Below are positions 3,140 to 64,000 of a stretch of 64,000 bases of DNA, piece by piece. How positions within the stretch are numbered: the stretch's first letter is position 1; each line of letters opens with the position of its first letter. Source of the DNA: Psammoneis japonica. Taxonomy: Eukaryota. The stretch covers positions 497,998-561,997 of the forward strand of contig QPGO01000015.1 of the NCBI GenBank assembly GCA_008632985.1, read 5' to 3'. The position numbers were made by a program, and so were the translations under genes. Below the pieces are notes generated by a model. It had not been told where the DNA came from and searched no databases. It saw nothing but the letters and a program-made list of their open reading frames with translations.

Positions 3140-5970
3140 TGACCAGCTTGGTCAGCAACCATGGACAGCTCATTTGAGCCATGCCATGTTGACTCCAGGA
3201 GACGGTGCATCCTCATGGTGGCTTGTTCAACAACACACATGTGTCGGGTGTGGCGAAGAGGGCAGGCACAAATGCCAGCCACACAAGAAACAACTGTGTC
3301 GGGCCAGGCACAGAGGGGGCAGTTGTGACAGCTGTTTGGTCAGGCATGTTGTTCATCAGGACACGTGACGGAGGCAGCTGTGGCAGCAAACTGTGCTGTG
3401 CATGGTCTTGTGAGTGTTGTCAGAGGAACCAAAAAAACTTGGGAGAGATGAAGGTGGCAGTCATGTGGCATTTGTTGATCACAACCCAACATGGCTGACT
3501 TCTGGTGCTGAGCTTCTGGATCCAAACCACTTTCAGAGCTGCTGCACAACTTAACCCCACCCTTCAGCTGGCCTTGGTGCGACTTCTCTCAATCAGAAAC
3601 AGCTTGCAATGGGGCAAAGAGCAGCCAACCACATCCAATGAAAGTTGAAAACAAAAGTTGCAGTTGTGGAACATCTCCAAGTGTCACAACTGTGAACCCA
3701 AACAACAGTCAGCGGATGTGGCCTGGCAGATGCTCACACTGTTTCCAGAATTTGCTTGCACATCCATGCAGCCACATGTGCGCACAGCTTCACCACTGTT
3801 TTTATCTTTCCTGCCACTTGGCATGGGCATGTTCAATCAGCGCCCAATGGAGTGGCAGCATCTCAGGAGTGGGAGCTCAAAGAGTGTGTCATAAAATGTG
3901 CATTGATGTGCCAAAGTGCCCCCAATTCTGCACAAGAGCAAAACTTGTCTTGCTTTGGTGCTGTGGGTGGAATGATCTGCTTTCATTGCTGAAGCAATGC
4001 TTTGCTGACATGCTTGTGACATCCCTTTCCACCTGTGCAGATGAAGCTCTCTGGGGAGTGGCATTTTGTGGTTTACTTGCACCTCACCTGTGTGTGTTTG
4101 CTCCCATTTTCTTGCTCTGCATTTCAACAGTCTCCACTTGACAAGATTTCTCCAGAGCTCTTGTGTGCTCCCATCAATGGCAACAAAGTGGGCTTGAACA
4201 CACAAGAGAAACAATCACTTGTCTGCAACTCAACGAACTTTCTCCAAACACATCACCAAGCCGGTCATTGCTTCCATTGATTTTTCCCATGATTCAAAGG
4301 CATCAGACTTGGGTTCCATGCTGTTGGATGCATTGCAGTCAATGCAAGTGACAAACAAACACTTCCCTCTCAGCATTTTTGTGTGTCCTTCAGATGATGC
4401 ATGGGTGCAACGTGCTTTGGCTTTGCCCTCACCCATGGAAAAAAGTGCTGTGATTGTGCCCCCTGAAACAATGCTGGGTCAAATCATGCATGACATCCTT
4501 GACAAGCACTCTGATCTGCCAAGGTTGGGCAATCAACCACCATGATGCAAGTCCTTTGCAAGGACATGGCAAGAGGCAGGCAGCCAACAATGCATTGTTG
4601 CACACCCTCGCAGCAGTTGCACATTGTCTCAAGAGACATTCTCTGGAGCAAAGAGCCATCTTGATGTGGTGACACCACCTGCAAAATGATGCTGGTGCAA
4701 GGCTTGAAGATTGCACAAGAAAATTCACAAATTGACCCAAAGATGCAGAGATTTGCTTTTTGCCAACAAAGGCACAGAGTGTGGCACAACAAACCAATTG
4801 TGTTTGGTTGGCTCACATCTGATTTTCAACTCTGTCTTGTTGGGCCAGGAGCTGCCTTGAAAAGCTGCTCTTGGCAGCTTTGAGTGCCCCATGAGATCCC
4901 CACATTGGCTTGCATCACTTGTGTGCATCTCCTGTCCCCTGCATTGTCTCTGTCAATGGCAGTCTGCAAACTTGGGCTGCTTTTCTCTCTGATCAAATAA
5001 TCTTTCAACAACAAAACCACCCCACTTGCACAGTGCTCATCTGGCAACAATGAACAGCAGAAGCTGAGTCCAGCAAATGACTTCTTTTCCCATTTCAACC
5101 CATGTTTTGGCATGCATTTTGCTGAGCTCCCAAAATTGTGCACCTGGTCTGCAACAAGCACTGGGCCATGTGACAAAATGTTGTCTTGGGTGTTGATGAA
5201 AAGGATTGCATGAGAAGTTTGGTTTGTCAAAGCCAGTGGTGTGCCAACCTTGTGCAGAAAAGCTTTTGTGAACACTTTGGGAAGCTGAGCTTGTCAAGAA
5301 CTCCTGCCTTTTCAAAGCAAACACCATGCAAAAGTTGCCATTGGGGAGAAGAAGAGAGAGAGAGATGTGGCACAAGCACAACTTGAAGCTGCTCCATGGG
5401 GCCTTGCCAATGCTGTGTTTGAAATTGTGGGTGGGGTGGGGGGGCACCTCATCTGCTGGGGGTGAAATTCACAACAAAAATGTCCACGTTAACACTTTGT
5501 CTCCAGTGCACAGAAACTTTGACTTGCAAGGACAGAAAGACCAAAAAAAGCTGCAAGCAGGTGTCATCTTTGGCAAAACAGCATCATGATTGCATGGATG
5601 TTGCACCACACTGCTTTCCAAACAGTGCAGTTTCTGACTCTTTTCTTCAGTGTGCTTTTGGAGCTTCTCTGCTTTCTTCTCTTTCAGCACTTCACATCAT
5701 TGTTCTTGAAGCCACTCTCAAGTCAGCTGACCTTCATTTTTTCATGATTTTTGCTTTGTGCTTGAGAACTTTGTTGGCACATTTCTCATCATTGACTTGT
5801 TCTTCTGTGGCACAATGAATGAGCCTCCTCTTTTGCATTGCCCAACATCTGAACACTGGCCCCATTTCCATCTGCTTGATGCTGCACATGCACTGCACTT
5901 GTTCAAAGGCTGATTTGGTCTTGAGAACAGAGTGGATCACTGGCACCAAAGGAACAGCAATTGCCAAATG
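3140..5970. mobile_element. Heavily decayed repeat/transposon remnant(s), family not assignable
   Basis: Near-complete loss of CpG and TpA, Cys/His-rich spurious ORFs, no recognisable domain. Confidence 0.5.
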
Positions 5971-6315
5971 TGTTGGAGCATCTAGATTGCAGCAATGCAG
6001 AGAACCGGATGTGTTAAAGAGAAGATGTTGAAGATCTGACATGGTGGATTTGGCGACTCTTTACATTCAGATTACATTGTCACCAATCTCACTCACCTTC
6101 CAGTTTGTCTCGCTCTTAAGAGTGAATCATCTGGGTTGCAAGAATTGCATTTTGGCATTGTCAAGTGCCTGTCATGTGGTGAGTTTGAAGTTTGCATGAA
6201 TTGACAACTTTCTTTGGGCAAGCCACAGCCACCAAAGCAGCCAGGGCACAAGTGTGATGAGTGGCACAGGAAGCTTTGCAGAGGGCTCCCTTTTGGTGAC
6301 ATTGACTTGCTGGTT
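5971..6315 (+). repeat. Putative 5' LTR of the copia (copy 1 of 3)
   Basis: About 350-bp module beginning TGTTGGAGCATC, homologous to 16035-16387 and 18411-~18700. It lies directly upstream of the gag remnant. The 3' end is approximate. Confidence 0.65.
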
Positions 6316-8384
6316 TGCAAAGAGTCACAAGCACTTTGTTCAGTGCTTGTCACAACTGACCTTCACGCAGTCATCTGACATTGAATCCCTGCACAACATG
6401 AGTGGCAGAGGATGAGAAAGCAGAGCAAGTGGTGGAGGCCAACAACACAACTGAGGCAGAGGTGACAGAGGTCACAAGTCTTCCAACAACAACAACAAGA
6501 CCAAACCAAAGAAAAGCTTTTGACCCGAGATGAAGTTTCATCCTTTGTCACTGAACAGCAATGCTTGCAATGCAACACATAAAGACATCAAATCAAAGGT
6601 CATCAGTTGCATTCAGAAAGAATGCAAACAAGGCACACATCCAGTGAGATCCTCGGAAGACATGAAGCACAAAGATTTCATTGCCAAGAAACCTGAATTG
6701 GGTGCACCCAAGTCAGAACTGCCAAAGACAGACTGCCACACTGAGATGGAAGCAAGACATCAAGACAAAAAAGAACTGGAACACAAGTGCAAGGCTGAGA
6801 TCCATGACTGCAAAAAAAAAAAGCTTGAAGAGAACAAGACCACTGCATGTGCTAAGATCCCAGATGACCACTGCACCAAGTCAATGAAGCAGAGAGTGCA
6901 GGGCAATCCCAGTTGCTCAAGTGCCAGAGATGATTGGACAGAGCTGCTCAAGCTGATGCAGTCCCTTGTGCTTGACTCAATGAGAGGTTGACACCCATTC
7001 CATGCACTTGCCAAGTCTTTGAAGCACATGTTGGAAGTGTGAAGCAACAAGAGAACAAATTGCTGAATGATTGCCTGTCAAGATTCAAGAATCAGCAAGA
7101 TGCTGCAAGCAACAGTTTGAGAAGAAAGATGCCAGCTGGGTTCATTGAGAACACCAAGGAGTGCAAAGATGGCAACTCAACAGCCCAGTCTGACCCAAAG
7201 GCAGCAGCACATGAGACATGGGCAACACATCTGTTCACAGAGAACAGCGACAATTGCTTCTGCCAGAGTTTGAAGAAGAGCTTCATGAGAGATTGCAGTC
7301 TGGGGAAGGACATGCACCCAAAGACCCTGGACAAGGCAATCAATGCACTGCCAAATCATCCAAATGACAACAATCCCAGCTGGAGACCAGTGCATGGCAT
7401 GCATCTGGCAAAGGTCAAGGTTGACCTGTCCCCCAATGCAGGAGTGGACACCTTGGACAAGCACCATGCCTGGATGGGGTGACATGAAGCTTGGATTGCA
7501 GAATGTGATCGTGAACATCCTGAGTCCGAAAGATGTGAAAGACCCAAATGAGTGCTGCATTGCTTGCAATGACCAAGTGGTGGACAAATTCTGGCTGCTG
7601 GATGAGAGGACTGGCAAGCAAGTCATGCGGTGTTCAAAGCAAATGACATTGGACTGCACACCTCTGCACTGAGCCAGTGGTTTTTTGACTGCATGAAAGA
7701 TCTCTAAGAAAGTGAGATGCATGTGTGCATGCTGTCAAAGAAGAAGACAAAGAAACAGACCAACAAGAAGCACAGGAGTGCATCTAGAATCACAGCTCCA
7801 ACAGCAGAACAGAACAACACAGGCTGCACCAAGAGAGAGGTGGCAAGTGCTGACTGGGCACTCAGACTGTGTCATGAGCCTGGAGCACCCAATGTGGCTG
7901 AGGGATTTCAAGCTGTTTTGTGATCCAACCAGGCGAAGAACTTGTCCATCACACCTGAAGATGTGAGCAGGATGGTGGCCATCTGGGGTCTGCCAACAGA
8001 TGCAATGAAAGGCAAGGCCAAGCATGCACGTCATTCCCATGAACAAAGTTGTGACATTGCAGCCATGCCACCTGAGATGTGTGTGATGCAGACAGAAGGT
8101 GCGATGCTCTTCATTGATGCCATGGAAGTGTGTGGTGTCAAGCTGCTGTGTGCAATGGACAAGACAATCAAGTGCCAATTGAGTGTGAGACTGAGGTCCA
8201 AGAAGAAACATGACAGTGTGTTTGAAGCACTGGACATGATCCTCTGACAGTGCAACATGGCCCTGATTGAGATTGACTTTGTTGAGTGTGATCCTGAGTT
8301 CAAGGAAATGCTGCTGGCAAAAGTTGCTGCTGGCATGAATCTGGAGCTGATTTCTATGAACACAAAAGACCATGTGCCCGAAGT

Positions 8385-9600
8385 TGAGCGGAGCATGCAG
8401 ACCATCAAAGAGCAAATGCAGGCCACTCCTGTGCACCATGTGCCACACAAGATGACAACCAAGTTGATGTGTGAGCATGCCATGATCAAGAGTGCTGCAT
8501 TTCAAACAAGTGCCCAGAAAAGCAAGGGATTTCTGACATTCACAGTCCGTGCACTGTTGTGCAATGAAGGAACCTCAAACACTTCCAGCTCAGGTTCAGG
8601 GAATTTGTTGTTTCTGACCCAACAAACACCATGGATGCACGTGGTGTTGACAGCATCATGTGCCTGTGACCGCATTTTGATCTGCCCAAGGTTGGACACT
8701 GCACAACGAAGCTGCACATGGGGAAGCTGTTGAACCCCTGCAAGTGTGCCTCCACACCCCTGACTGACATGCACACACAGGCAGTTTGAGAAGATTGCTG
8801 TCAAACAAGGCATCAAGGAATTTAAATTCATGGGTGAATGCAAAAAAATGATCTGCATGACACTGATTGGACTGCAGCAGTGGACAACAACAAAAGTGGC
8901 AAAAGCAATGGCAGGAAGGATGAATGCAAAGACAATCACAATGATGTCAACTGCATGACCAAGTCCAACAATGAAGACCATGTGCCAAAAGTTGAGTGGA
9001 GCATGCAGACCATCAAGGAGTGAACTCAAGCCACCACATGCCATGTGCCACACAAGTCAACACCCAAGTTGATGTGCAAGCAAGCCACAATCAACAACGC
9101 TGTCAGGTCAAATGTGCACCCACCAAAGGAAGGGATCTCCAACACTTGCAGTTCACACACTCTCATGCAATGAAGGAACATTAACTGTGACAAACACTGC
9201 TGGTTCTGGTTTGGGGAATTTGTGATTTCTCATGTTGAGAATGACCCAACAAATGCCATGGATGCACACGGCATTGACAGCATGCACCTGCAACCATGTT
9301 TTGACCTGCCCAAGGGTGGACACTGCACCATGAACCCACACACAGAGAAGCCATGAACTCCCACAAGTGCACCTTCAAACCCCTGACCAAAATGTTCATG
9401 CAGGCAGTCAAGAAGATGGCCATTGCACAAGGCAACAAGGAGTTCAAATTTGCAAGTGAACACAGAGATGATCTGCACCATGCTGATTGGACTGCAGAAG
9501 TGGACAACAACAAAAGCAACAGCAATGAAAGCAACAGTGAGGACAATTGCAAAAACAACCACAATGATGTTGACCACATGACCAAGTCTGACGATGAAGG
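8385..9600 (+). repeat. ~600-bp internal tandem duplication of the integrase C-terminal region
   Basis: aagaccatgtgcc..gttgag.ggagcatgcagaccatcaa occurs at 8386 and 8974. gattggactgcag.agtggacaacaacaaaag occurs at 8866 and 9485. Confidence 0.85.
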
Positions 9601-10404
9601 TTGCAAAGAAGATGAAGCAAACTCAGATGAGGAACACAAAGAAGCAAATGAGATTCCACACAATGGAAGATGATCCAGCCCTGATCAAAACAGCATGACA
9701 TCCAAGAAACAGAAGATGAAGACTGTGGAAGTGAAGAAAACAAAGATCATGAAGATCACAAGGAACACAATGAAGCCACAGAATCACAAGATGCTGACCA
9801 ACCCCAACAAAGACAACAGATGGGAAGAAGAAAGATTGGTGGAAGTGGCAAGTGGCATGCCTGGCAGAGCAATCAGGAGTGGTGCCAACTGTTCTGCATT
9901 CTTCAACATGAAATCAAGCAAACACATGGATGAGAAAGTTTGATTTGCAGAAGTGGCAGACACTGACAAAGTGAAACAAGAGCACAACACTCTTGAGCAC
10001 TGCCATCATTTAAGAACAAATGTGAGCCCCAATGCAGAGGATGACACAATGTGAAATGGAGACAGCAACAGTGCTTGCACACTTCATGTGTGAGATTGAT
10101 GACCAAATCTGAAGAGGAAAGGGTGTGTCTTTTGCCCAGCAATGTTTGTTGCACAAAGGCGCCTCAAAACATTTGGCCAGAGAGGACATGATGCATCAGA
10201 GAAAGAAATGAAACAACTGCATGATTGAGTGTGCTTTGCACCAGCATCAGTCAAGGATGCAACTCCAACTGAAAAAACCAATGCATCAACAGCAGCCTTG
10301 ACATTCCCAGCCAAGAAACATGATGGTCACATTAAAAGGTGAGTGATTTGCAGTGGGAAACCAACCTGAGAATGGCCAGACAAAGATGAGCCAGCCAGCC
10401 CAAC

Positions 10405-10680
10405 TGACAGAAATTGAAGGCAAATGGCAAGAATTCAAACAACAACTCCTCACTGCTGTCTAAATGGCAGATGAGTCTCTGCTCAGAGACCGTTGCAGGA
10501 GCCGAAAGACGTGCAAGTTGGTACAATCGGGCTACTGTTGTTGTTCTTGTGAGCCTTGTGGCTCGAAAGCAAACTACATTGTGCGCGAACGCGCGGAACT
10601 AAAGCACACAAAACTGTGCGCGGCAAACTAAACAGCGCGCAATGTTTCGCGCGCACCCAAATCCTGTTCAAATCCTGTCA
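10405..10680 (-). repeat. 3' LTR of the nested element
   Basis: 276 bp, 14 substitutions versus 13721-13996, no indels. Confidence 0.95.
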
Positions 10681-10746
10681 CTCCCCAGTTTGCTTGAGGA
10701 GTCACAGAAACAGATTCGACTTCGGATTGACCAAAGAACTTTGGAG

Positions 10747-12768
10747 TCAAAGCACCAAAACATGAGGAGACAAGAAAGGATCAAGATCCGAGAGCAACGT
10801 TGCATTCTCCAAGTGGGTCATCTTGAGATGAGCTGCATCTCCCCAATTGCAGATGCCGTTGTGCTTTTCAAAGCTCAAGGCACACTTGGGATCTTGTGGG
10901 ATTCCACATCCGCACTTGCAATGGAAGGAGCAAAGCTTGGTCTGGTTGACAATGTTGAACGGCGGGGCAACATTGCAGGCGGCATGGCGTTTGCATGACT
11001 CGGGGAACAGAGCAAGCATCAGTTCAAAGGCACAAGTGGTGGTCTTGTGTTCCACCAATCCGACTGCATCTCCTGAGAGACTGATCCAATTGGAGAAACG
11101 AGTCTCAAGGTGCAAGCCTTCGGGGATCGGATTGGAGCAAGACATCTTGTGGTGCAAGGCTGCAGATGTCTGATTGGGGCAACCAGTCCCGTGCTGCAAG
11201 ACTTCTGGGATCCAAAAGGACTTGCCAGTCTTGTGACACGAGTCTTCGGGGATCCAATCAGGAGGCCAAGTCTTGAGGTGCGAGACTTGGGGGATCCAAT
11301 CAGGAGGCCGAGTCTCGTGGTGCAAGACTTGAGGGATCCAATCCGGAGGCCGAGTCTTGAGGCATGAGACGTGGAGGATCCAATTGGGAGGCCCGGTCTC
11401 GAGGCACGAGACGTTTAGAGTCCAGTTGGGAGGCCTGGTCTCAAGGCACGAGACTTGGGGCCTGGTCTCGAGGTACGAGACTTGGAGCATCCAGTCAGGA
11501 GGCCTGGTCTCAAGGCATGAGACTTGAGGCATCCAATCAGGAGGCCTGGTCTCGAGGTACGAGACTTGGGGGATCCAACCAGGAGACCTGGTCTCGAGGT
11601 ACGACACTTGGGGCATCCAATCAGGAGGCCCAGTCTCGAGGTGCGAGACTTGAGGCATCCAATCAGGAGGCCTGGTCTCGAGGTACGAGACTTGAGGCAT
11701 CTAATCAGGAGGCCCAGTCTTGAGGTGCGAGACTTGAGGCATCCAATCAGGAGGCCTGGTCTCGAGGTGCGAGACTTGAGGCATCCAATCAGGAGGCCTG
11801 GTCTCGAGGTGCGAGACTTGAAGCATCCAATCAGGAGGCCTGGTCTCGAGGTGCGAGACTTGGAGCATCCAGTCAGGAGGCCTGGTCTCAAGACACGAGA
11901 CTTGAGGCATCCAATCAGGAGGCCCAGTCTCAAGGTGCGAGACTTGAGGCATCCAAAGACAACGAAGCTGCTTGGATGTCCTGAACTCCCCATCTGATGA
12001 ACCGGTTGAACTGTTGTGAACAGATTCAATGATGGGAAAAGGAGGCTCCCCATCAGGAGATGCGAGAAGCAAGTTGTCATCTCCATCACTTCCCAAACGA
12101 AGACTGTGAAGGGTGACAGCGGTCGACACATGGAGGTTGGCAGCACGTGGTTTGCGGGGTGCAAAGACTGCAGCTTTGGAAGCCATGGGTGGAGTGTCCC
12201 AACTGGTCTCGAAGTGCGGGCCTGTGCAAGGGCTGCAATCCTGCACTGGGCCGAGGTTGCTTGCAGGCGGGTTGGTCAAGACATGCGGGGCGCGACTGAC
12301 ACCACTTCTGGGGGACACCTGAGTGGTGGCACAGTGCAAGGCTGGTGTCAAAATGGCACTGGGTTCACCTGGTTTGGATGGCAAGGGACTCGGCACAGGT
12401 GCGGAGGGTGCTGCGCCAGTGGCTAGAGAGGTCAAGTAGTCCGGACCAAGGCGGCAGTTGCGAAATTCCTCGGGTGTGAGCAACCGGGGTTCATTGGTCA
12501 CATCATCACCGTTGCAAACTTTGACAAAGTAGAAGCTGATCAAAGCTGCTGGGAGGTTTCTGTGGGTCCGTGGCAAAGGCACTACATTGGCGCCGTCTCT
12601 GTAAGTGAGGGCGTCAATTTGGGTGGGTAAGAACATGAACAATTCCTCACACGATTCAATCCCGTTGATGGACAGGGCAGAACGAAGAGGGCTGTCATCT
12701 TCTTGATTGAGCACAGTGCCTAGAATGCATTTGAAGCTTTCGGTTTGTTGCTGTCGCGTGAGAACCAT
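10747..12768 (-). pseudogene. Copia gag-like ORF with a 14-aa tandem-repeat C-terminal region; one in-frame TAG at 11701-11703
   Basis: MVLTRQQQ...ILGTVLNQEDDSPLRSALSINGI...IDALTY...LTPEEFRN resembles diatom copia gag N-termini. ORFs 11701-12768 and 10747-11700 are in the same frame, split by TGG->TAG in one repeat unit. Confidence 0.7.
11090..11955 (-). repeat. 42-bp tandem array (PPDWMPQVS[Y/H/C]LETR), about 20 units, degenerating toward lower coordinates
   Basis: Plus-strand unit gagacttgaggcatccaatcaggaggcctggtctcgaggt(a/g)c. Confidence 0.95.
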
Positions 12769-13720
12769 GACGGAGGACGGTGCAGTAGAAACAAAAGACA
12801 GGAACCAATCTAGAGCGTGATCTTGACTCGGAGTTTTGACTTGGAACTTGGCTTGAAAAAGACTTGACTTGAGCTAGACTTGACTTGAAATCTTGGACTG
12901 TCTTAAAATCAGAAGTCGCCGGGCTGCACTATCCCGTTGGTTGTCAAGTGCTAAACTTCCTGTCCGGTCCGTAGAGTTGTGCCAGCACGTCCGAACCCGC
13001 AGCCAGCGGCACTTTGGGTTGCTTGCGAGCGGAGCAGCGGGTTGCAAACCCCTGCAGGCAAGCTGACCAGAGGTGGACAAGACCCCCGAACCGTTCTTGT
13101 TTTGTGTCGGTTGGATTTCCCGATTGGGCTGGCCAGTTGACGTAGGCGCCAGGCGCTGTGGACGAACGAACAAACGCGGGAAAACACCCTCGCCCCAACG
13201 TGGGCTGCAATCATGGCTGCTTGCTCTCACAGTCATCCTCGTGGACCTGGCAGAACTGCAGAGCACCAGCAGTCCGGGGTAGATCAGGTACAATGGACTC
13301 GGTGTGCTTGTAGAGTGGCAGCAAAACCGCGGTCCGAAGAGTGGGCACAAGTTCTTGGCCGTGAAGACATGTGTGTGCACATGTCTTCAGCGACGAAGAT
13401 CCTTGAACATGCAGGGTTCTTGACCGTTAACCGATGAATGGGTGCATCAAGGGATGAGGATCAAGGACAGACTTGGACATGACCGTTGATGCATGTCTTC
13501 AGCGATCCAAGGCAGCATGATCAATCCAGATGTCCAGCGGCAAGGAGACTTGACGGTGACGTTAAATTCCTGCCGATGCCTGGCATTGAACGCGCGCAGA
13601 CTTGCCGATGTATGTAGAACACACACGGAGGTCCACGCAGAATTGAAGCAGCGTCGTCGGTAAATCAACGACGACGATGGCGGTTGCTCAATGGGTTGAC
13701 AATGAGCAAGACTGTCAATC

Positions 13721-13996
13721 TGACAGAAACTGAAGGCAAATGGCAAGAATTCAAACAATGGCTCCTCACTGCTGTCTAAATGGCAGATGAGTCTCCGCTC
13801 AGAGACCGTTGCAGGAGCCGAAAGACGTGTAAGTCGGTATAATCGGGCTACTGTTATTATTCTTGTGAGCCTTGTGGCTCGAAAGCAAACTACATCGCGC
13901 GCGAACGCGCGGAACTAAAGCACACAAAACTGTGCGCGGTAAACTAAACAGCGCGCGATGTTTCGCGCGCACCCAAATCCTGTTCAAATCCTGTCA
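13721..13996 (-). repeat. 5' LTR of the nested element
   Basis: Direct repeat of 10405-10680, upstream of the gag-like ORF on the minus strand. Confidence 0.95.
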
Positions 13997-16034
13997 CCAA
14001 CAGCATCCTCAGAAGGAACATTTGTGATGGTGATTGCAGATGCTGCTGAAGAGCATGATGTCATGAGCACTGATGCACACCAAACACATTTGTGCAAACA
14101 ATGACACCAGAGCCTGACAAAGGCAAAGACCAAATTGTGATGAAAGTTGCAGGAGTGTTGGTTGACATGCTTGCGAGCATTGACCCCAACCCATGTGGAC
14201 CACATGTGGTCCTGGAAAAAGGCAAGAGAGTCCTTTCCATCCAAGTCATTGGAGCCACAATTGCAAAGACTTGGAGAAGACAAGGTTTGAGCTCAACCCA
14301 TGTGATCCATGCATTGCCAATCAAACAGTTGGTGGCAAGCAGCGCGCCATCCAACTCCATGTGGATGACCTCATGGCAAGCCTCAAGAGCCCAAAAGCAA
14401 ATGACAAGTTTTAAGCTGGTTGAACAAGGTGCATGGAAGCCATGGCAAAGTCATCTCTGTGCAAGAGAAGAGATGTGACTGTCACAGCATGACCCTGGAC
14501 TTCAGCCACAAGGGCAAGGGGGGGAGGCCAACATGACCAAAACTGTGCTGGCAAGATGATCCGTCAGTTTCCAGAAAAGATTGAGAATGCAGATGCTGCC
14601 ATGATGATGCCAGCAGGTGAGAATCCATTTGACGCCAGTGGTGCAAGCAGAGAAAGCACAGATGTTCCACACACAGGTGGCCAAGGGACTGTTTGCACCC
14701 AAGAGAGGTCATGTGGATGTGCACCCCCCGCTGTTGTGGCGCTGTGCACATGAGAGTCAGAGAACCTGTGAATGAAGATTGGGAAAAGTCAGTCCATTGT
14801 CTCAAGAGCATGAACCGGGCAAGAAACCAGCCACAATCTGCTGTGGCTGCAAATGAATGTTGACCATGTGCAGCAATGACTCGTGTGAGCTGTGCACATG
14901 TTGCAACATGATGACAAAGGCATGGCCACCAAACTGCTGGCTGGATTGCCAAGAGAGACTTGCAGGTCTAAGCAACACAAGAATGCAAGAGATGATGGGT
15001 GCAGATTGCATCAGAGCATTGGGAGAGTGCAAGAGGTGGGTTGAGAGCAACTGGAAGATGCTGGCTTTTGATCTGCACCTGCAACAAGACACTCTGGATT
15101 TGCGGGAGGTGTTGTTCACCACAAAAAAAAACAAAGACAGAAGACCCAGATCTTACACTGCCTTCCTGTTGGGGGAAGCCAGAGTTGTTGGGCCTGTGGC
15201 AGGGCCGGTGGCAGGGCCTGTGGCTGGGCAGATGCAAGTTGATGATGCAAGTGCATGAAGAAATGGTGGCACAATGGAGTTTTGAGACAGTGGAGCACAT
15301 GTCTGCTGCTGCACCTGTGTTCTCCATCTGTTGTGATTGAAGAATGACAAATGAGGAAATCAAGAGACAAGCCAATGAAGCTCCCCAGACCAAAGAATGT
15401 TGGTGGATTGTTGGAAGCTGAGCCTCAAGGCAAGGCAAAATGTGCTGCAATCAGCAGCAACCTGGCAATGAACAGTGCCTCAAGGACAGGTGCATCACCA
15501 GATCATTGAGCAATGAACTGCAATTGGCCATGAGCGTGAGCAACATTCAAGACCCAAGTGGAAAGTCAAATGTTTGCCTGCCCACATGTGGCATGGACAG
15601 GAATGGGGCACGCGGCACCCTCATGAAGTTCATCAAGTGCCCCAATCCTGATGTTGTCATGACTCATTGTGAGCTCATGAGGGACAACGATGGCATCATT
15701 TGTGATGTGAGAAAGTTGGCATCATTCTTCCACTGTGATTTTTGCAAGTGGTGCTGCAGAGAGATGGAGTTCTTTGACTTGACTCCCCCCAAAGCAACCA
15801 GCAACTGGGAAATGGAGGATCTGGCCAAGGAGTGGGACAGTGAATTTGAGAAAGAGAAACTCTGACATGGTCATGTGGAACATTTTGTGAAGCATGTTCA
15901 TGACATGACACACTCATTTGATGATGTGACCAGATGTTCTGACAATGGGCGGTGCGCCAGCTTTTGTGTTGCCCATTTGAGGGACAATTGTCAAGAGGTG
16001 GATCAGAAGAACATTGTTGAGAGCAGCAGGAGTG

Positions 16035-16387
16035 TGTTGAAGCATCTGGATCATGGGAACACAGGGAACACAGAGAACCCAGACATGTTAAAGAGAAGAT
16101 GTTGAAGATCCTGACATGGTGGATTTGACGAATCTTGCATTCGGAATGCATTGTCACCAATCTCACTCATTTTTCAGCTTGTCTTGCTCTTTGGAGTGAA
16201 TCGTCTGGTTTGCACAAATTACATTGTGGTGTCAGAAGGTGCCCATTTTGTGTTGCAAGTTTGAATTTCATCAAGAACTTCCAAGCAAACCACTGCTGCC
16301 AAAGCAGCCAGGGCAAGTGCAACAAGTGGCACAGGAAAGCCTTGCAGGATTCCCTTTTGGCAACATTGACTTGCTGCTGGTTCAACA
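16035..16387 (+). repeat. Copia LTR (copy 2), TGTTG...CAACA
   Basis: Preceded by AGCAGGAGTG (PPT-like 'RSVL' junction). Homologous to the 5971 and 18411 modules. The exact 3' end is uncertain. Confidence 0.7.
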
Positions 16388-18700
16388 TCAAGTGGATGGC
16401 ATGTGGGCATGCCAGAAGCTTGGCATCCAAAGCAGCACAGAAGCTGAACTTGTTGGAGTCAATGATGCCATGACTGTGATGCTGTGGACAAAGTTGTTCA
16501 TGGAGCACCAAGGGCATCCAGTTGACAAGAATGTCCCTGTGTCAGGACAAAAAGAGTGCCGTGCTGCCTGAAGCCAATGGGTGTAAGAGTGCCGGCAAGT
16601 GGTGGTCCAGAGCACTCAACATTTCAGCTTTTCTTTGTCACCAATCAGATCAAGAAGGGCAATCCAAGAGCCCAGTGCTGCACAGCTGTTGACATTCTTG
16701 GAGACTTCATGATGAAGCCTTTGCAGGGCAAGATTTTTGAAAGCTCAAACGAGCCATTGTGGGCTGTTAACTTCAAGCACAAGTGTTTCCTGTTCTTTGT
16801 GACATTGGACAAGAGTTCTGACGCATGTGGGTGAAAGATCCCTGCAACCCAGTGAGGGCACTGAACCAAGAAGTGGTTCAACCAGCCACAATCTGTGGCT
16901 GCACCAAATGAACATCAACCATGTGTGGTGACAACTCATGCGAACTCTGCATGCATTGTGACATGATGACAAAGGTGTGGCCAACAAGCTGTTGGCTGGA
17001 TTGTCAAGAGAGACTTGTGGGTCTGAGCAACCCAAAAACACAAGAGATGATGGATGAAGATCACAGCACAGAGCAATGGAAGTGTCGAAGAGGTGGAATG
17101 AGAGTGACCAGAAGAAGACACCAACTCTCAATCCACACCTCTCCACCACCACACCCTCTTTGCACCCAAGTTCAGATGGAGACAACCTGCCATCAGCATG
17201 GCCACCAACAAACATGGCCACTTCTGGATTTGATCCACCTGGAGGAGGGCACCTCTGAGCCAAGATGACCTGTTTTGGGCTTTTTCACTGTGACCAGTTT
17301 TTTTCACTTTCTCACTTTTTCTGGCTTTGTTGGAACAGGAACATTGATTGCTGTGACTGGACCACAGCCACTCCAGCTTGGGAAAGGCTTTGTTGGAAGT
17401 GGCGGCTTGCGAAGTGTGTGCTCGAATCCTTGATGTGCACCAGGTGCTGGACTTTGTTGAGAAAATGAAAACAGAAGATCCAAATGTGGTCACACCTTTC
17501 CATTGGGGGGAGCCTCAGTCATTGAGCCTGTGACATGGTCTGTGGCTGGGCAGATGCAAGTCATTGATGCAAGTGCATGAAGAAATGGCACAGCGGAGTT
17601 TTGAGAAGGTGGAGAGCACATGTCCACTGCTGCACCAATGTTCTCCATCCACAATGACTGGAGAAGTGCATGTGAAATTAAGAGACAAGCCAGCGAAGCC
17701 CCCAAAACCAAAGAACATTGGTGAATTGTTGGAAGCCAAGCCTCAAGGCAAGGCACAGTGTGCTGTCCTCTGCAGCAACCTGCTGGCAATGGAGAGCTCC
17801 TCAAGGACAGGTGCATTGCCTGTTGCAGCTGGCCCTGAGCAACAAGAGTGACATTCAAGACACACATGGAAAGTTGGGTGTTTGCCTGCCTGCACATGGC
17901 ATGGACAAGAAAGGTTCATGTGGTGCCCTCACAAAAAAGCTCATTGAGAGCCCTGATCCTGACATTGTCATCACTCATCATGGGCTCATGAGGGACAAGG
18001 ATGGCATCATTTGTGACACAAAGAAGTTGGCATCATTCTTCTACCATGAATGTTCACCTGCATGGAAATCACGTGAGTGGCACTGCAGAGAAATGGAGTT
18101 CTTTAATTTGACTCCTCTGAAGCAATCAATGGTTGGACAATGGATCTGGTCAAGGATCAGAACAGCGAAAACAAGAAAGAGCAACTCTGTTGTGATTGTG
18201 TGGAGTGTTTTGTAAAAAGTGTGTTTGTGACATGACACACTCATTTGATGACATGACCAGATGCTCTGATGATTGATGGTTCACCAGCTTTTGCATTGCC
18301 AGTTTGAAAGATGATTGTGAGGAGGCAACCAAGGGGATGTGTTGTTCCTCAAGACAGACCAGGAATGATCTTGTTGGAAGAACATGTCATTGTGAGCGGC
18401 AGCAGTGGTGTGTTGGAGCATCCAGATCATGGGAGCACAGAGAGCCCCAGACATGTTAAAGTCAAGATGTTGAAGATCCTGATGTGGCGGATTTGGCAAC
18501 TCTTCACACATTTGGATTTTATCATCGCCAATCTCACTCACCTTTCAGCTTGTCTCACTCTTTTCAGCAAATCATCTGGCTCACAAGAACTGCACTGTGC
18601 TGGTGTCACCAGGCACCTGGCCTGTTGTGACACAACTTTGAAGTTTGCATCAACAACTTCTGGGCAAACCACAGCCACCTGAGTGGCCAGAGCAAGTGTG
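16388..18700 (+). mobile_element. Second, 5'-truncated copy of the same copia: RNase H, 3' extra region and partial LTR (18411-~18700)
   Basis: QKLGIQSSTEAELVGVNDAMTVMLWTKLFMEHQG and DILGDFMMKPLQGKIF are copia RNase H motifs. 16879-18410 is homologous to 14825-16034. Confidence 0.8.
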
Positions 18701-19310
18701 GTGTCATCACCACAGAATGTTCTTGTGCTCCTGTTGTTCTTCTTCCAAAGAGCATGCTGCACTTGTTCTTGGGTTGACATCATTTTGATGAAACAAGCTC
18801 AAAAGTTGTTGTTGTTGTGCAGAATCTGGCACCACAGTGTTGTTTTGTGAGCCAGCATGTGGTGCAATGGCCTCTGGGGCTTGCCTTTCAAGCAGTTGTG
18901 TTTTCTTCTCTCATGAACAAGAAGGAACAAGCAAAAGCTCAAAGCCCATGACGGAATGTGTCGAGCACGTCTCCAACACTAACCCAGAAGTGGGCTGCCA
19001 AATTCATTGGCCTGGGAGTGCTTGACCTGAGTGTAATGTCGAGGGACGCTGCCAAAACAATTTTTTGCGTCGTGTCGTACGTACGGTAATGTCGTACCAT
19101 ACGTACCGGTACGTACGGCGTACGTCTGCCGCAAAACATCGTCTGTCCGACGCAACGGAAAAGATCGACGACCAGCACCGCCCGACCACCCGCCACACCG
19201 ACCACAGAACTGCCGTCGATCGACCACCATTTTCATTTTCCATTTTTGCAGTTCCAGGAAGACTTCGAATTCGTCAAAAGAGCAACAAAAGTACAAGTAA
19301 AAGCATCGCC

Positions 19311-23265: not shown

Positions 23266-23954
23266 TGAGTTGTGATCGAAAATCGAGCGGTAGAGATTTT
23301 GTGTGTCGTGACCGTTGCAAAATTTCTCAATCACTATCACTTTTTGTGTACCTTAGTAGATTTAATACCACGTCGCAGTATGTAGAACGTTCGTTAGAAC
23401 TTGGTAGTTTCAAAATTATTACTAATTCCTACGTACGCTCTACGGTAGCCGTGCAAAACGCAAAAAGCAAGAAAGCACTCGCGCGATATTGCGCGCTGAA
23501 GATGGACTTCCCGCACCCGCTGATCTTTTTTCTTTTTTTTGCATAGGCCCTATTTTTTGAGATCATCTTGATGAATTGATGAATAATCATCGGTACTGTA
23601 TTCATTCAGTAGGGTGTCAAACCACAAACACCGGTTGATACTGTACATTGCGCAACGTTTGTTTGAAGATAGACCATTGCTATAGTCTGTCCTGGTCCTT
23701 TGTAGTGCATCTTATTTGATTTCTTTTCAGGAGCCATTTTTCTGGCCTCTGCGGCATCTTGGCGACCAGGGCCTGTTTCGTGGTCTGAAGCTACGTGAGA
23801 ATTGCTTCATTGTTCGCTGCCCTTCTCACCATTGACCCCATCAATGCTGGCCTTTGCTGTTGGAGCATATTCTTTTATAGGGTTGTTCAGGACGAGAAAT
23901 GCGCAACTGAGAAGCTTACGAACAGACAAACATCATCCCGGTTCAAGTGAAAAC

Positions 23955-34249: not shown

Positions 34250-36200
34250 ACAATCAAGCAGTGATCGGGTTTGCCAACATTTCCAAAAATGTGACAACAA
34301 AAGTTGCATCACTCAACAACCAACAACATCTCAAGAGATGGAAACAAGAAAAGTGACTCCTCTTTGCACTTGAATTAAAAGAGACAACAATGCACAACAA
34401 ACATTTGAGAAGGACAAGAAGCTCTTGAATGCATGGAACCAGAAGAGAGTCAATGAATCGCTCTTGTTTTGAACCTCTTGACCTGTTCTGTCCATGATGG
34501 TGGTTGGCTGAAAGGTTGGTGGTGGTTTTTTTGTGTGACTTGCAGCTTGAGGCATGTTGATGCATGAACACATGGCCCATGTGTGGTGTCACCTTTGGAA
34601 AGTGCCACTTGTGGAGCTTGGGTGGACAACTCTCTGTGCTCAAGCTTTGTCCGCCAAATGCTCCATCAAAGTCCAGATGCTGCCACATCCCACCCGACCA
34701 TTGACACAAAACAGTTCTTGCAAAATGTTGTTGCCTGTTTCCCTCTTCCTCTGCAGAGCAGCCCTCTTGGTGACAGTGCTGCCCACATGCCAGAATGTGC
34801 TCAAGAATGCTTTCCATTTTGCCAGCAAAGATGCCCAACGCGGGCTGTGTGGGCTCGAATCTCTCTCAAGACAAGCTGACATTTGTGCCTGGCACTGGCA
34901 GCAATGCTCAGCCCTCCTTCCTGTTTGACTTCCCAGGAGTGTGCCCAGATCTCCTGCGTGCTGAGTGGCTCAACCACAAGAGTCGCTGTCTTTGTCAGTT
35001 TTGTCAGCAGGATGTGCCAAGGCTGCTCTGGCCATGTGTGTGCAAGGACAGCTGCGACAGCGCTTTCTGCTGTCAGCAAAGAGTGTGAGCTGGCTGGACT
35101 GCCCAACCCCACACTTCACAGCTCCTTGGCAGTCACTCCAAATCAAGTGCCAACTTGGGGTCAACCGCACCTGGCTGGCTGCAATGCAAAGACAGCTGTG
35201 GCAGCACTTTGTGACAACAAAGAGAGTGCGAGCTGGCTGGGCTCCCAACCCCACACTTCACAGCCCCTCAGCACTGGCTCCCAATCAAATGCCAACTTGG
35301 GGCCAATGGCTGTGAAGCCATCATTGCAAATCCCTGTGCCTGCCCCCTCACACAGCTTTGCACAGGGTCAACATGTGTGGCCTTTGCAAGATGGGCCCTG
35401 GCTGGCTGCTGGCTCTTCAGCCACACGGCTTGCACAACAAGCCACCACAACACAGAGCACTGTGGGGTGAGTGCAGCACAGCCCAAACAAGCACACCATG
35501 CTGAGATCACCCAGAGTTGGCTGCTGTCCTGGGGCTCCATTCAAAGCTGGGCTGGGCTGCTTGGCTCCTTGGTGTGCAGCACATGCTTGGCATCACATTC
35601 TTGTTGCCAAGCAGCCACATGGCATGTGCCCACCATTTGTGCCTGCAACAGCGACCCCAGCCACAAAGAAGCCAACAAAAAGTTGAACCTGGTTTTGTGG
35701 TTGAAGAGTGAAGAAACTGTGAGTGAAGTTTGGTTCAAGATTTGTTGGCAATGCCAAGTGCGCAACCAAAGAGAGGCGCCAAAAATGGCTGTTCTTGCTC
35801 ATTTCTCAAGAGGAGCTTGCGCTCATGATGCAGGGTCTGAAGCAAGCACCAGCCAAGACAACAGTTTTTTCTCTCTGCCCCACTTAAAACACAGCCTTTG
35901 AGTCAATGTGGTGCTCCTTCAACAACTCACGCACACTGGGAAGAGCAGCTGGAGCCAGGGCAGCTGGCCTGGCAGGGCTTGGCTGATGCCCAAGCTGGGC
36001 TGCTCAGCCTGGTGGCACACACTCAGTGCCACATTGTCACCCTCCTGCAACTGCAATGTGCCCCACTCTTTGCACCTGCAGCAACCACCCTGGATCAAAA
36101 GAAGCCAGTGCAACTCTGGCCATGGTTGCATGGTCAATTGTGTGTGTGTGTTCAACGGTTGATTCCCCTCTTTTTTTCTCTTTTCCTTTAACCGGCCACG
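34250..36200. mobile_element. Decayed CpG/TpA-depleted element of unknown family (second copy about 36870-38815)
   Basis: Same dinucleotide signature as the copia island, no recognisable domain. Confidence 0.55.
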
Positions 36201-54650: not shown

Positions 54651-54688
54651 ATTATTGCCTGCGCCCCCCGCGCCGCTCCCGCCCGCTG

Positions 54689-62800: not shown

Positions 62801-64000
62801 AAAACTCTCACTTTTTACACTCTGTGCAGAATTGCAGGCAATGATTGACCCCTTTGCTTGTGACTTTTGTTCTGTTTTGTGGAAGTGCTCCTCCGCTGTC
62901 CATGCCAACAATGCAAGGCAGCAACTGGCTCTGAACTTGTTGCCAACATCTCAGATGCAAGGATTGTTGTGATGTGAAAACAGAGCTCTGACAGCAATGC
63001 GGCACACAGAGATCTCAGACATGACACTTGGACAGATTGCACAAACAGAAATGAGACATTTGAATTGCTCTGTGGTGGAGGAGAAATCCTTCAGAGGCTT
63101 GTTCTTTTCCTTTCTCATGGCAATGATGGCGATCAGCTCAAAAAATAAAGAAAAGCATTTGAGTGTGTGTCACAAAGTTTCAACATCAGGAATTTTGAAA
63201 ACAATGCTGTGGTTGCAGTGCTGACAAAAAGAAGCAAGTTCAGTCATTGAGGTGAGCATGTTGCTTGCCAACAATGGAGCTGTGGAGTGTTCCATGCAAG
63301 TGGATCCAGAGTGAGTTGCCTCTCTTCATGGAGGGTGAGTTGCAGTTTGACACAGTGAGAAAAGCTTGGCTGTCCAACAAAGAGAGCAGCACATCAGGTG
63401 TGCTGCAAGCATGCAACCTTCAGGACAACCTTTTCTGCTTGCCGGTCATGTCATTGAGTTGACAAAGCTGTGGTGGTTGCATTTTGATGCAGCTCATGCT
63501 CTGGGGAATGCAGAGCAACTTGAGTGAAAGGTGCTCAGCAGAGCTTTTCAAGTTGTCAAAGCTTCCAATGGAGGCCACAGGCATTGATTGAGCTTTGAGG
63601 AAGATTTGCTCATTCAACATCCCACGGAGACATGGGCAATCTGATGGGTTCTCCATGTGCCAACACTTTGCAAGCAAAAGATGTCGAAGCTTGGAATGCC
63701 ATCATCTTTGGTGTGGTGACAGACCAAGCAATGAATCCTTGAGAGTCACAAATTGCAACACTGTCCAAGCAGTGTGGGACTCAATGTGGCTGGAACTTGA
63801 AAACAGCCAGCTGTCACCACACCTGGAGTGGCACTGCAAAGGCAAGTCAGGTTCACCACAACAGCTTTCTCTTCTTTTTGGAGATGGTCAGCCTTGTCAG
63901 CTCTAAGTGCTGAGCATTGAGTGCACAGATGCCACTTTGGACCCTCAATGATCTCTTGGTGACTTGAATGTTAGAATGTTGGAGCACTCATTTGGCTCAA
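59900..64000. mobile_element. Heavily decayed CpG/TpA-depleted transposon/repeat island, runs off window end
   Basis: Same signature as the other islands. Family not assignable by eye. Confidence 0.6.

What the first reader, a model, noticed from the sequence alone, without database searches (positions are those of the whole stretch)
10405..13996. LTR pair records the mutation spectrum: 14 of 14 differences are transitions, at CG, TA or inferred CCG/CGG sites
The two 276-bp LTRs were identical at insertion. They now differ at 14 sites with no transversions or indels. Five are TA (5' LTR) versus CA/TG (3' LTR): gtgta/gtgca, gtata/gtaca, gttattat/gttgttgt (two sites), cggta/cggca. Five are CG versus TG/CA. 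Four fit decay of ancestral CCG/CGG (aaactga/aaattga, aatggc/aacaac). The copy that lost CG is the same copy that lost TA, so the two processes are coupled. The CCG changes hint at non-CG or neighbouring-C methylation. LTR-divergence dating is unreliable here.
Basis: seen in the sequence. Interest (0 to 1): 0.85.

Follow-up and report, generated by a model that had tools for sequence, protein, structure and literature searches.

The report
LTR pair exposes CG-and-TA purge
The two end-repeats of a diatom jumping gene differ only by the kind of letter changes that have removed almost every CG and TA pair from older repeats nearby, which points to an undescribed TA-directed mutation process working beside ordinary methyl-CG decay.

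Summary
The 276-bp LTRs (10405-10680, 13721-13996) differ at 14 sites, all transitions, with no indels. Five are CG and five are TA in the right LTR, against TG/CA in the left.

The element is a real, non-autonomous LTR retrotransposon on the minus strand of a diatom genome. It has TG..CA ends and a 5-bp target duplication.

In 19.6 kb of repeat-derived domains in this window, only 46 TA and 128 CG remain beside 4595 CA+TG. Genes keep CG at expectation and GC content is unchanged.

Old paralogues inside the domains show a fivefold excess of CA-versus-TG doublets. Fitted decay rates are about 16x (CG) and 29x (TA) the background transition rate. These rates reproduce the LTR spectrum.

Contigs from public runs show the right LTR close to an abundant family variant.

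Unresolved: why one LTR took nearly all the hits, and what attacks TA. The CCG/non-CG methylation idea is unnecessary. My literature searches found no description of this CG-plus-TA purge.

The parts
10400..10404 (.). Left copy of the 5-bp target-site duplication (ccaac)
   Evidence: Read. The same five letters follow the right LTR at 13997-14001.
10405..10680 (-). Window-left LTR, the 3' LTR in the inferred minus orientation. This is the changed copy: TG/CA at all ten CG/TA sites. It has 17 CG (rho 1.03) and 6 TA (rho 0.34).
10681..10691 (-). Purine run next to the 3' LTR when read on the minus strand (..aaactggggag), a likely polypurine tract
   Evidence: Sequence. The role is inferred.
10681..13720 (-). 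3040-bp internal region without recognisable gag/pol. TA rho 0.18, CG rho 0.62.
   Evidence: 0 Pfam families for the two long internal frames; no homologue; composition.
11222..11962 (-). Array of 42-bp tandem units inside the internal frame. Its variable columns are the same YR steps (CG/TG/CA and TA/TG/CA).
   Evidence: TRF; 17 units listed.
11701..12768 (-). 355-aa open frame starting with ATG, an orphan
13721..13996 (-). Window-right LTR, the 5' LTR in the inferred orientation. This copy keeps 22 CG (rho 1.30) and 11 TA (rho 0.65) and is close to an abundant family variant.
   Evidence: tables 2 and 8.
13997..14001 (.). Right copy of the target-site duplication (ccaac)
   Evidence: A paralogous contig joins 10364 to 14000 without the element (table 5c).
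3300..10404 (.). CA/TG-only domain D1a, the older repeat DNA into which the element inserted: TA 20, CG 35, CA 873, TG 811
   Evidence: Flank depth shows it is multi-copy.
13997..18950 (.). CA/TG-only domain D1b, the continuation on the other side of the element: TA 13, CG 36, CA 549, TG 602. It contains old internal repeats.
34250..35950 (.). CA/TG-only domain D2, inside copy 1 of a 2.6-kb tandem duplication: TA 2, CG 19
36870..38700 (.). CA/TG-only domain D2b, the same stretch in copy 2 of the duplication: TA 3, CG 19
60000..64000 (.). CA/TG-only domain D3, which runs off the window: TA 8, CG 19, CA 439, TG 505

Best explanation
The locus is a genuine 3592-bp non-autonomous LTR retrotransposon on the minus strand of a diatom genome. 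It inserted into older repeat DNA. Its LTR differences are an early snapshot of a mutation regime acting on repeats in this genome, in which the two self-complementary pyrimidine-purine steps, CpG and TpA, are both converted by transitions into CpA/TpG. The end state is DNA in which about 96% of pyrimidine-purine steps are CA or TG while GC content stays the same. Five such domains lie in this window. SHOWN: the 14 transitions and their contexts; the near-absence of CG and TA in the domains with normal values in genes; the excess of CA-versus-TG doublets in old paralogues; the agreement between domain-derived rates and the LTR spectrum. INFERRED: (a) TA, not CA/TG, was the state of both LTRs at insertion. 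(b) The CpG arm is deamination of 5-methylcytosine on silenced repeats. (c) The TpA arm is a separate T-to-C / A-to-G process directed at TpA, about twice as fast per site as CpG decay. Its most likely cause is a second mutagenic base modification or deaminase activity on the same silenced chromatin. A precedent is thymine hydroxylation, which in dinoflagellates marks transposons and prefers TA. (d) The window-left (3' ) LTR took at least 11 of the hits and the right LTR at most 1 to 3. The reason is not known.
For:: 14 of 14 differences are transitions; 5 are CG and 5 are TA, all in the right LTR; 10 of 14 differences lie in the 66 of 276 positions that belong to a CG or TA (P = 2.3e-4), and all ten point the same way (P = 0.002); in 19.6 kb of domains, TA 46, CG 128, CA 2268, TG 2327. 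Per kb that is 0-6 TA against 50-74 expected and 1-12 CG against 52-76 expected. Gene tiles have TA rho 0.52-0.61 and CG rho 0.91-1.03. GC is 0.47-0.51 in both kinds of tile. Other dinucleotides in the old repeats stay at 0.90-1.12. A composition series runs right LTR (TA 0.65 / CG 1.30), left LTR (0.34 / 1.03), element interior (0.18 / 0.62), old repeats (0.05 / 0.13); among 557 aligned YR steps of five old paralogue pairs, 125 are CA-versus-TG doublets and 45 are single-step differences. In 547 control RY steps, 24 are double and 187 single; a Markov fit gives CG decay of about 16x and TA decay of about 29x the background transition rate. A model with ordinary TA stability is worse by a likelihood-ratio statistic of 553; those rates predict 6.4 CG, 5.6 TA and 1.8 background events for the LTR pair; observed are 5-6, 5-6 and 2; of 38 displayed variable places inside the element, this copy has CA/TG where other copies have TA at 25, and the reverse at 2. 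X2 and X3 contigs match the right LTR at 13783-13888 and 13783-13883 with 1 other letter each. At LTR position 237 the family carries G in 10012 of 10858 depth; the only substitution between the two 99.9%-identical 2.6-kb tandem copies is TG versus TA at 35988. (passages of PMC11572971): dinoflagellate 5hmU is enriched on transposons, and earlier work found preferential replacement of thymine in TA and TC.
Against: The family state was displayed for only 1 of the 14 LTR sites, because the table showed 40 of 198 rows. Polarity at the five TA sites therefore rests on indirect evidence. Short contigs map to whichever LTR they resemble, so the depth ratio is biased in an unknown way. The reverse changes do occur. 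At 13143 this copy has TA where all 19 other contigs have CA. At 12485 and 13591 this copy keeps CG where most others have TG. A uniform regime does not explain why the right LTR has at most 1-3 hits while the left LTR has at least 11 and the neighbouring 616 bp differs from an abundant variant at 48 places (X4 record 32). The rate fit assumes stationarity, equal background rates and correct alignment of about 70%-identical repeats. It predicts 18% doublets against 22% observed. The paralogues could be separate insertions of one family, in which case their differences arose partly while the family was active. Only one 64-kb window could be examined, since no genome is held and no other copy was found in any collection. 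LTRs of a family with thousands of copies can be mis-polished in an assembly. No enzyme, methylation or thymine modification could be examined.
Confidence: 0.6

Rival explanations
1. The spectrum is right but the place is wrong: gene conversion or polishing. The two LTRs do not record mutation in place. Either one LTR was overwritten by ectopic gene conversion from another of the thousands of family copies (a pristine donor for the right LTR, or a decayed donor for the left). Or the assembler or polisher pulled one LTR towards the family's abundant variant. The 14 differences would then be family-level variation, still produced by the same CG/TA decay at other loci.
For: All ten CG/TA sites point the same way (P = 0.002), which independent equal-rate decay of two LTRs does not predict. 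The right LTR is nearly identical to abundant contigs (1 other letter in 106 and in 101). The adjoining interior differs from an abundant variant at 48 places in 616 (X4 record 32). Summed LTR depth is 87000-347000 per bin, against about 800-1000 in the flanks and 36-70 per single contig, so donors and multi-mapping reads are plentiful.
Against: A contig of depth 37 covers 13971-14139, the end of the right LTR plus unique flank, with 0 other letters (record 7), so at least that junction is as assembled. No conversion tract edge can be seen, since the differences span positions 10-237. No data show a donor copy.
Confidence: 0.3
2. Opposite polarity at the TA sites (RIP-like, or deamination of non-CG-methylated cytosine). 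All 14 differences would be C-to-T / G-to-A. The left LTR lost CpG, and the right LTR suffered CpA-to-TpA changes as in fungal repeat-induced point mutation.
For: Any transition can be read as C-to-T, which gives a balanced 8:6 split of hits. CA-to-TA does occur in this copy at 13143. All five sites are CAA/TTG in the left LTR, while only 16 of 41 CA contexts are CAA.
Against: A CpA-to-TpA process would enrich TA in old repeats, but they hold 46 TA in 19.6 kb. TA-containing differences are 13 of 557 YR steps in old paralogues, although C-to-T-type changes are common at control RY steps. The right LTR, not the left, matches abundant family contigs. The balanced split is not a likelihood argument, because each specific assignment of hits is equally probable under symmetric decay.
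Confidence: 0.07
3. Composition rather than mutation. The CA/TG-only domains belong to repeat families that evolved, while active, under selection against CpG and UpA in their RNA (as in many RNA viruses), or under some DNA-level constraint. The LTR differences would be unrelated ordinary CpG decay plus chance.
For: CpG and UpA are jointly suppressed in many RNA viruses (abstracts listed). None of the 73 of 89 domain frames of at least 90 aa that were scanned hit Pfam, so the origin of the domains is unknown.
Against: The depletion is far deeper than in viruses (rho 0.03-0.07 in the 4001-12000 and 60001-64000 tiles) and is symmetric on both strands. The active LTR family in the same genome is CG-rich (rho 1.30) and only mildly TA-poor. 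The doublet excess shows continuing passage through CG/TA after the copies separated. The LTR spectrum matches the domain-derived rates.
Confidence: 0.08

Closest known systems
Decay of methylated CpG in silenced transposons (5-methylcytosine deamination), as in vertebrates, plants and methylated diatom repeats (recalled knowledge)
   Same: CG is replaced by TG/CA in repeats but not in genes, where CG rho is about 1.0. The decay is about 16x the background transition rate, the order of magnitude known for methyl-CpG (recalled).
   Different: This explains only half of the signal. It predicts no loss of TA and a fall in GC. Here TA goes faster than CG and GC does not change.
Repeat-induced point mutation (RIP) of fungi (recalled knowledge)
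   Same: Transition-only hypermutation is confined to repeated DNA, with sharp domain edges. It runs until the target dinucleotides are exhausted and makes LTR dating unreliable.
   Different: RIP turns CpA into TpA and makes AT-rich, TA-rich DNA. Here TA is destroyed, CA/TG is created and GC is unchanged. The organism is a diatom. Only one LTR of the pair is hit.
Very-short-patch repair bias in E. coli, which depletes CTAG and enriches CCAG/CTGG (recalled: Bhagwat and McClelland 1992; not read here)
   Same: It is the one known process that converts TA into CA/TG, by always resolving T:G mismatches to C:G in a set context.
   Different: It is bacterial, genome-wide and context-bound (CTWGG). 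It would protect CpG-like targets rather than lose them. Here the effect is confined to repeats, and CTAG is not special among the 46 surviving TA (2 CTAG).
5-hydroxymethyluracil on dinoflagellate transposons (PMC11572971; abstract and passages read)
   Same: A thymine modification made by a TET/JBP enzyme is enriched on repeats and silences them. Older work cited there found preferential replacement of T in TA and TC. This gives a route to a TpA-directed change limited to silenced DNA.
   Different: It is a different lineage. No mutational consequence is reported in the passages read. No modification or enzyme could be examined here. TC is at most mildly lowered in the domains (GA/TC rho 1.01 against 1.20 in genes).
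Non-autonomous LTR retrotransposons (LARD/TRIM type)
   Same: 276-bp direct LTRs with TG..CA ends, a 5-bp target duplication, a purine run at the 3' LTR, and no gag/pol.
   Different: No primer-binding site was recognised. The interior carries an orphan 355-aa frame and a 42-bp tandem array.

Membership tests
LTR retrotransposon | Two direct terminal repeats | tested here: met
   276 bp each, 262 of 276 identical, no gaps.
LTR retrotransposon | TG...CA termini | tested here: met
   Both LTRs start tgacag and end ctgtca.
LTR retrotransposon | Target-site duplication and an empty site | tested here: met
   ccaac at 10400-10404 and 13997-14001. A paralogous contig runs from 10364 to 14000 without the element (table 5c).
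LTR retrotransposon | Polypurine tract next to the 3' LTR | tested here: inconclusive
   The minus-strand reading gives aaactggggag next to the left LTR. It is short and was not compared across copies.
LTR retrotransposon | tRNA primer-binding site next to the 5' LTR | tested here: inconclusive
   No TGG-type site appears next to either LTR. The window has no tRNA gene to compare with.
LTR retrotransposon (autonomous) | gag, protease, RT, RNase H, integrase | tested here: not met
   0 Pfam families in the two long internal frames and no homologue of the 355-aa frame. The element is therefore non-autonomous.
Fungal RIP | CpA to TpA changes, with TA gain and GC loss in repeats | tested here: not met
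   The domains hold 46 TA against 4595 CA+TG. Domain tiles have GC 0.47-0.51 and gene tiles 0.47-0.50.
Fungal RIP | Both copies of a duplicated stretch are mutated | tested here: not met
   All ten CG/TA differences leave the right LTR intact.
Fungal RIP | RID-type cytosine methyltransferase homologue; premeiotic timing | not testable with these tools
   No genome is held.
Methyl-CpG decay | CG replaced by TG/CA in the affected DNA only | tested here: met
   CG rho is 0.07-0.13 in the old repeats and the 4001-8000 and 60001-64000 tiles, against 0.91-1.03 in gene tiles. CA/TG rho is 1.84-1.90.
Methyl-CpG decay | Cytosine methylation of these CpGs | not testable with these tools
   Sequence only.
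APOBEC- or ADAR-type editing of a retroelement copy | One kind of change on one strand, in runs | tested here: not met
   On one strand, 9 differences are C/T and 5 are G/A, in both directions. CA and TG are not clustered in runs in the domains (z between -1.97 and +0.84). Both LTRs of one insertion come from one cDNA (established knowledge).
TE-directed thymine hydroxylation (5hmU / base J type) | Modified T at TpA in repeats; TET/JBP dioxygenase gene | not testable with these tools
   No genome and no modification data. This is only a precedent in another lineage.

The most novel reading that the evidence does not exclude
This diatom has a repeat-directed mutator with two arms that erases both palindromic pyrimidine-purine steps. 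One arm is ordinary methyl-CpG decay. The other is a previously undescribed TpA-specific T-to-C / A-to-G process, about 29x the background rate and faster than CpG decay. It most likely comes from a second mutagenic base modification (oxidised thymine or modified/deaminated adenine at TpA) laid on silenced DNA. The result is a GC-neutral counterpart of RIP that turns dead transposons into CA/TG-only DNA.
Probability: 0.4. Interest if true: 0.9.

Novelty: new variant of a known kind. Interest (0 to 1): 0.75.

Why it matters
If the TA arm is a real mutational process, it is a second hypermutable dinucleotide besides methyl-CpG, confined to silenced repeats, and it implies an unknown DNA modification or deaminase in diatom heterochromatin.

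Practical consequences:
- LTR-divergence dating in this genome is badly biased. Here 12 of 14 differences are at hypermutable steps, and only 2 of about 210 ordinary sites differ.
- Decayed repeats keep normal GC content, so GC- or AT-based scans for RIP will miss them. They also yield long spurious open frames, because two of the three stop codons contain TA.
- The CA+TG share of pyrimidine-purine steps (about 0.6 in genes, above 0.94 in the domains) is a simple one-number detector of such DNA in other genomes.

Tried and rejected
**Searches that found nothing**
- The whole genome is not held.
- Other copies of the LTR in the window: none beyond the pair. An R/Y-coded exact-seed search on the same strand found no extra relationships.
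- A degenerate LTR-end pattern found 0 matches in viral contigs and 0 in metagenome contigs.
- The LTR's 62-aa frame found no homologue. The 355-aa internal frame found none at E <= 0.001.
- Fetching other diatom loci with the SDA1 protein: 115 pattern matches, none confirmed.
- Earlier findings of this scan held nothing on this genome or topic.

**Limits of the run data**
- Read laying displayed only 40 of 198 variable places, so 13 of the 14 LTR sites could not be read off.
- Runs X2-X4 have low shares and were used only as contigs that were actually laid.

**Literature**
- Searches returned nothing on joint CG and TA loss in diatom repeats. Only listings and abstracts were seen.
- The Atlas look-up gave no taxonomy.

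**Ideas considered and dropped**
- A balanced 8:6 split as an argument for the all-C-to-T polarity. It is not a valid likelihood argument.
- A special TAA context for the lost TA: 5 of 5 lost against 3 of 6 kept, not significant, and TTAA is the commonest survivor in the domains (19 of 46).
- Protection of CTA/TAG: 5 of 6 kept TA against 0 of 5 lost, but only 11 of 46 domain survivors carry it.
- Polymerase-eta-type WA mutagenesis: AA is not depleted (rho 1.11).
- A base-calling artefact at modified bases: contigs with k-mer depth 36-70 reproduce the flank exactly (record 7). The sequencing platform is not on record, so this is only an argument.
- The 42-bp array as a polarity test: unit duplication makes the counts non-independent.
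Full report
**1. The observation**

MAFFT alignment of 10405-10680 with 13721-13996 gives 276 columns, no gaps and 14 differing columns, all transitions. BLAST gives 94.9% identity.
- The window-right LTR has CG at LTR positions 76, 115, 176, 178 and 237.
- It has TA at positions 110, 120, 136, 139 and 220.
- The window-left LTR has TG or CA at all ten.
- The other four differences are position 10 (T/C) and positions 39-41 (CAA/TGG).

Ten of the 14 differences lie in the 66 of 276 positions that belong to a CG or TA (P = 2.3e-4). All ten point the same way (P = 0.002). 'All transitions' is weak evidence on its own: across copies of this family, 173 of 194 variable places are transitions.

**2. 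What the element is**

- Both LTRs begin tgacag and end ctgtca. The five letters ccaac flank the element on both sides.
- A contig in a public run joins 10364 to 14000 without the element, which is a paralogous empty site (table 5c).
- Read on the minus strand, a purine run (aaactggggag) abuts the left LTR. A 355-aa ATG frame (11701-12768) also lies on the minus strand.
- The interior (3040 bp) has no Pfam domain in its two long frames and no homologue. It holds a 42-bp tandem array.
- No primer-binding site was recognised, and the window has no tRNA gene.

It is a non-autonomous LTR retrotransposon.

The family is very abundant. Summed contig depth is 87000-347000 per bin over the LTRs, against roughly 800-1000 in the flanks and 36-70 for single contigs.

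The host is a diatom. The SDA1 gene in the window has its best named relatives in Skeletonema, Mediolabrus, Cyclotella, Epithemia, Amphora, Fistulifera, Nitzschia, Entomoneis and Thalassiosira, with top identity 70%.

**3. Direct evidence on polarity is thin**

No genome is held, and no other copy could be fetched. The only family data are Logan contigs of four coded runs laid on 10200-14200. The variant table showed 40 of 198 rows.
- Of the 14 LTR sites only position 237 was shown. The family has G in 10012 of 10858 depth, so the left LTR's A is derived (CpG to CpA).
- Contigs from the low-coverage runs X2 and X3, where only high-copy sequence assembles, match the right LTR over 13783-13888 and 13783-13883 with one other letter each. 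That span covers six of the differing sites.
- Depth in the central bin is 268146 on the right LTR against 87406 on the left.
- Inside the element, of the 38 displayed places this copy has CA/TG where other copies have TA at 25, and the reverse at 2. It has CA/TG against CG at 6, and the reverse at 2.

So CG and TA states travel together across the family as well.

**4. The window supplies the missing context**

Dinucleotide odds ratios split the window into two kinds of DNA.
- Gene tiles have TA rho 0.52-0.61, CG rho 0.91-1.03 and CA/TG rho 1.08-1.22.
- Five sharply bounded domains (3300-10404, 13997-18950, 34250-35950, 36870-38700, 60000-64000; 19.6 kb in all) hold 46 TA, 128 CG, 2268 CA and 2327 TG.
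- Per kb that is 0-6 TA where 50-74 are expected, and 1-12 CG where 52-76 are expected.
- All other dinucleotides in the old repeats stay at 0.90-1.12. GC is the same as in genes (0.47-0.51).
- The sequence is complex, not microsatellite-like.
- None of the 73 domain frames scanned, out of 89 of at least 90 aa, hits Pfam.
- The flanks of the element are multi-copy in the genome.

The element sits inside the largest domain and is intermediate in composition:

| Stretch | TA rho | CG rho |
|---|---|---|
| Right LTR | 0.65 | 1.30 |
| Left LTR | 0.34 | 1.03 |
| Element interior | 0.18 | 0.62 |
| Old repeats | 0.05 | 0.13 |

A process making TA from CA, like RIP, would give TA-rich relics, which is the opposite of what is seen.

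**5. TA is unstable in the domains, not merely absent**

Five old paralogue pairs inside the domains (about 70-76% identical) were aligned.
- Among 557 aligned YR steps, 125 are CA-versus-TG doublets and only 45 are single-step differences.
- Among 547 control RY steps, 24 are double and 187 single, which gives a per-site transition divergence of about 0.21.
- A doublet needs two transitions through CG or TA. Its fivefold excess means both intermediates are short-lived.
- If only CG were unstable, the common C-to-T-type changes would pile up as TA. TA appears in only 13 of the 557 differences.

A four-state Markov fit gives CG decay of about 16x and TA decay of about 29x the background transition rate. 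Fixing TA at background worsens the fit by a likelihood-ratio statistic of 553.

Applied to the LTR (about 22.5 CG, 11 TA and 209 other sites), these rates predict 6.4 CG, 5.6 TA and 1.8 background events. Observed are 5-6, 5-6 and 2. The LTR pair therefore looks like an early snapshot of the process that made the domains.

Positions 39/40 are a CA-versus-TG doublet, with one hit in each LTR. Positions 10 and 41 are the expected background. No CCG or non-CG methylation is needed.

The only substitution between the 99.9%-identical 2.6-kb tandem copies is also TG versus TA, at 35988.

**6. What is not explained**

Whatever the polarity, all ten sites point one way. With TA ancestral, the left LTR took at least 11 hits and the right at most 1-3. 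Yet the 616 bp next to the right LTR differ from an abundant variant at 48 places (X4 record 32).

Candidate explanations:
- ectopic gene conversion by one of the thousands of LTR copies;
- protection of the 5' (promoter) LTR;
- tract-wise episodes of mutation;
- polishing of a high-copy repeat towards the family's abundant variant.

One contig of depth 37 confirms the right LTR-flank junction exactly (record 7). I could not verify the interiors of the LTRs.

Reverse changes also exist: 13143 is TA here but CA in all 19 other contigs, and 12485 and 13591 keep CG here. They are compatible with background rates but should be kept in mind.

**7. Mechanism**

- Shown: the pattern and its rates.
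- Inferred for the CG arm: deamination of 5-methylcytosine on silenced repeats. Genes keep CG at expectation, as expected if only repeats are methylated.
- The TA arm needs T-to-C (equivalently A-to-G on the other strand) specifically at TpA, limited to repeats and symmetric on both strands. CA and TG are equally common and are not clustered in runs.

My preferred guess, at about 0.25-0.3, is a second mutagenic modification on the same chromatin.
- One option is oxidised thymine (5hmU/5fU type). In dinoflagellates 5hmU made by a TET/JBP enzyme marks and silences transposons, and older work found it preferentially in TA and TC (PMC11572971, abstract and passages). Thymine-oxidising TET2 mutants produce hmU and fU and raise mutation counts (PMC11804724, abstract and passages).
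- Other options are a deaminase acting on adenine at TpA, or a VSP-like repair bias that resolves T:G to C:G at TpA (recalled).
- Polymerase-eta-type WA mutagenesis is unlikely, because AA is not depleted.
- Retroelement RNA or cDNA editing cannot make two LTRs of one insertion differ, and it would be strand-biased.

**8. Comparison and novelty**

The CG arm is ordinary. The whole resembles RIP in being repeat-confined, transition-only and exhaustive. It fails RIP's defining features: the direction at CpA/TpA, the AT enrichment, and the mutation of both copies. It also occurs in a diatom.

Searches of the held literature found no description of joint CG and TA loss in diatom repeats (listings and abstracts only). 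Papers outside that library were not searched.

I file it as a new variant of repeat-associated hypermutation. The TpA arm may be new in kind.

**9. Verdict**

Coupled loss of CG and TA, with TA as the state being lost, is the best reading. The non-CG methylation hint is not needed. The warning about LTR dating stands.
- The main value of the finding is that it leads to the CA/TG-only domains.
- Everything rests on one 64-kb window and one truncated table of family variants. The genome-wide tests in the next-steps field are simple and decisive.

Noticed in passing
33601-36217 and 36218-38834: A 2618-bp tandem duplication, 99.9% identical: one substitution (G/A at 35988, TG versus TA) and two gap columns. 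Each copy is part normal DNA and part CA/TG-only domain, so the duplication is younger than the purge.
   Followed up: partly
3300-10404, 13997-18950, 34250-35950, 36870-38700, 60000-64000: Of the 46 TA that survive in the CA/TG-only domains, 19 are TTAA. The 128 surviving CG are most often GCGA, GCGC and GCGG. Because TAA and TAG are nearly gone, the domains carry many long spurious open frames (89 frames of at least 90 aa; none of the 73 scanned hits Pfam).
   Followed up: partly
11222-11962 (minus strand frame 10747-12768): A 42-bp tandem array of at least 17 units inside the element. It is translated in the open frames as a repeated ..ETRPPDWMPQVSHL.. peptide. Its variable columns are YR steps showing CG/TG/CA and TA/TG/CA alternatives.
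   Followed up: partly
10386-10404 versus 13702-13720: The 19 bp left of the left LTR resemble the 19 bp of interior left of the right LTR (13 of 19 identical, starting atgagc). BLAST therefore extends the LTR match to 296 bp. This may be chance, an insertion preference, or insertion into an old copy of the same family.
   Followed up: no
12880-13720: The part of the interior next to the right LTR has about ten times the contig depth of the rest of the interior (45000-111000 against 5000-20000 per bin). It is probably shared with a more abundant relative of this element.
   Followed up: no
13625-13690: An inverted repeat in the presumed leader (cgtcgtcg..cgacgacg, read), and GCGCGC-rich blocks in the second half of both LTRs. 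Their role is unknown.
   Followed up: no
863-2928, 19026-21889, 23951-24880, 24979-26181, 31223-32101, 49121-52689, 57068-59669: Ordinary eukaryotic genes with long exons: Utp6-like, SDA1 (split over two frames), a short-chain dehydrogenase, an IBR/RBR-type ligase, Ufd2 core, TTI1, a WD40 protein, and a DUF6824 plus RanBP zinc-finger protein. Their TA rho is 0.42-0.57 at all three codon junctions, and CG is at expectation.
   Followed up: partly
54001-55000: One tile has intermediate composition (TA 18, CG 50, CA+TG share 0.71) and short tandem repeats at 54750-54954.
   Followed up: no
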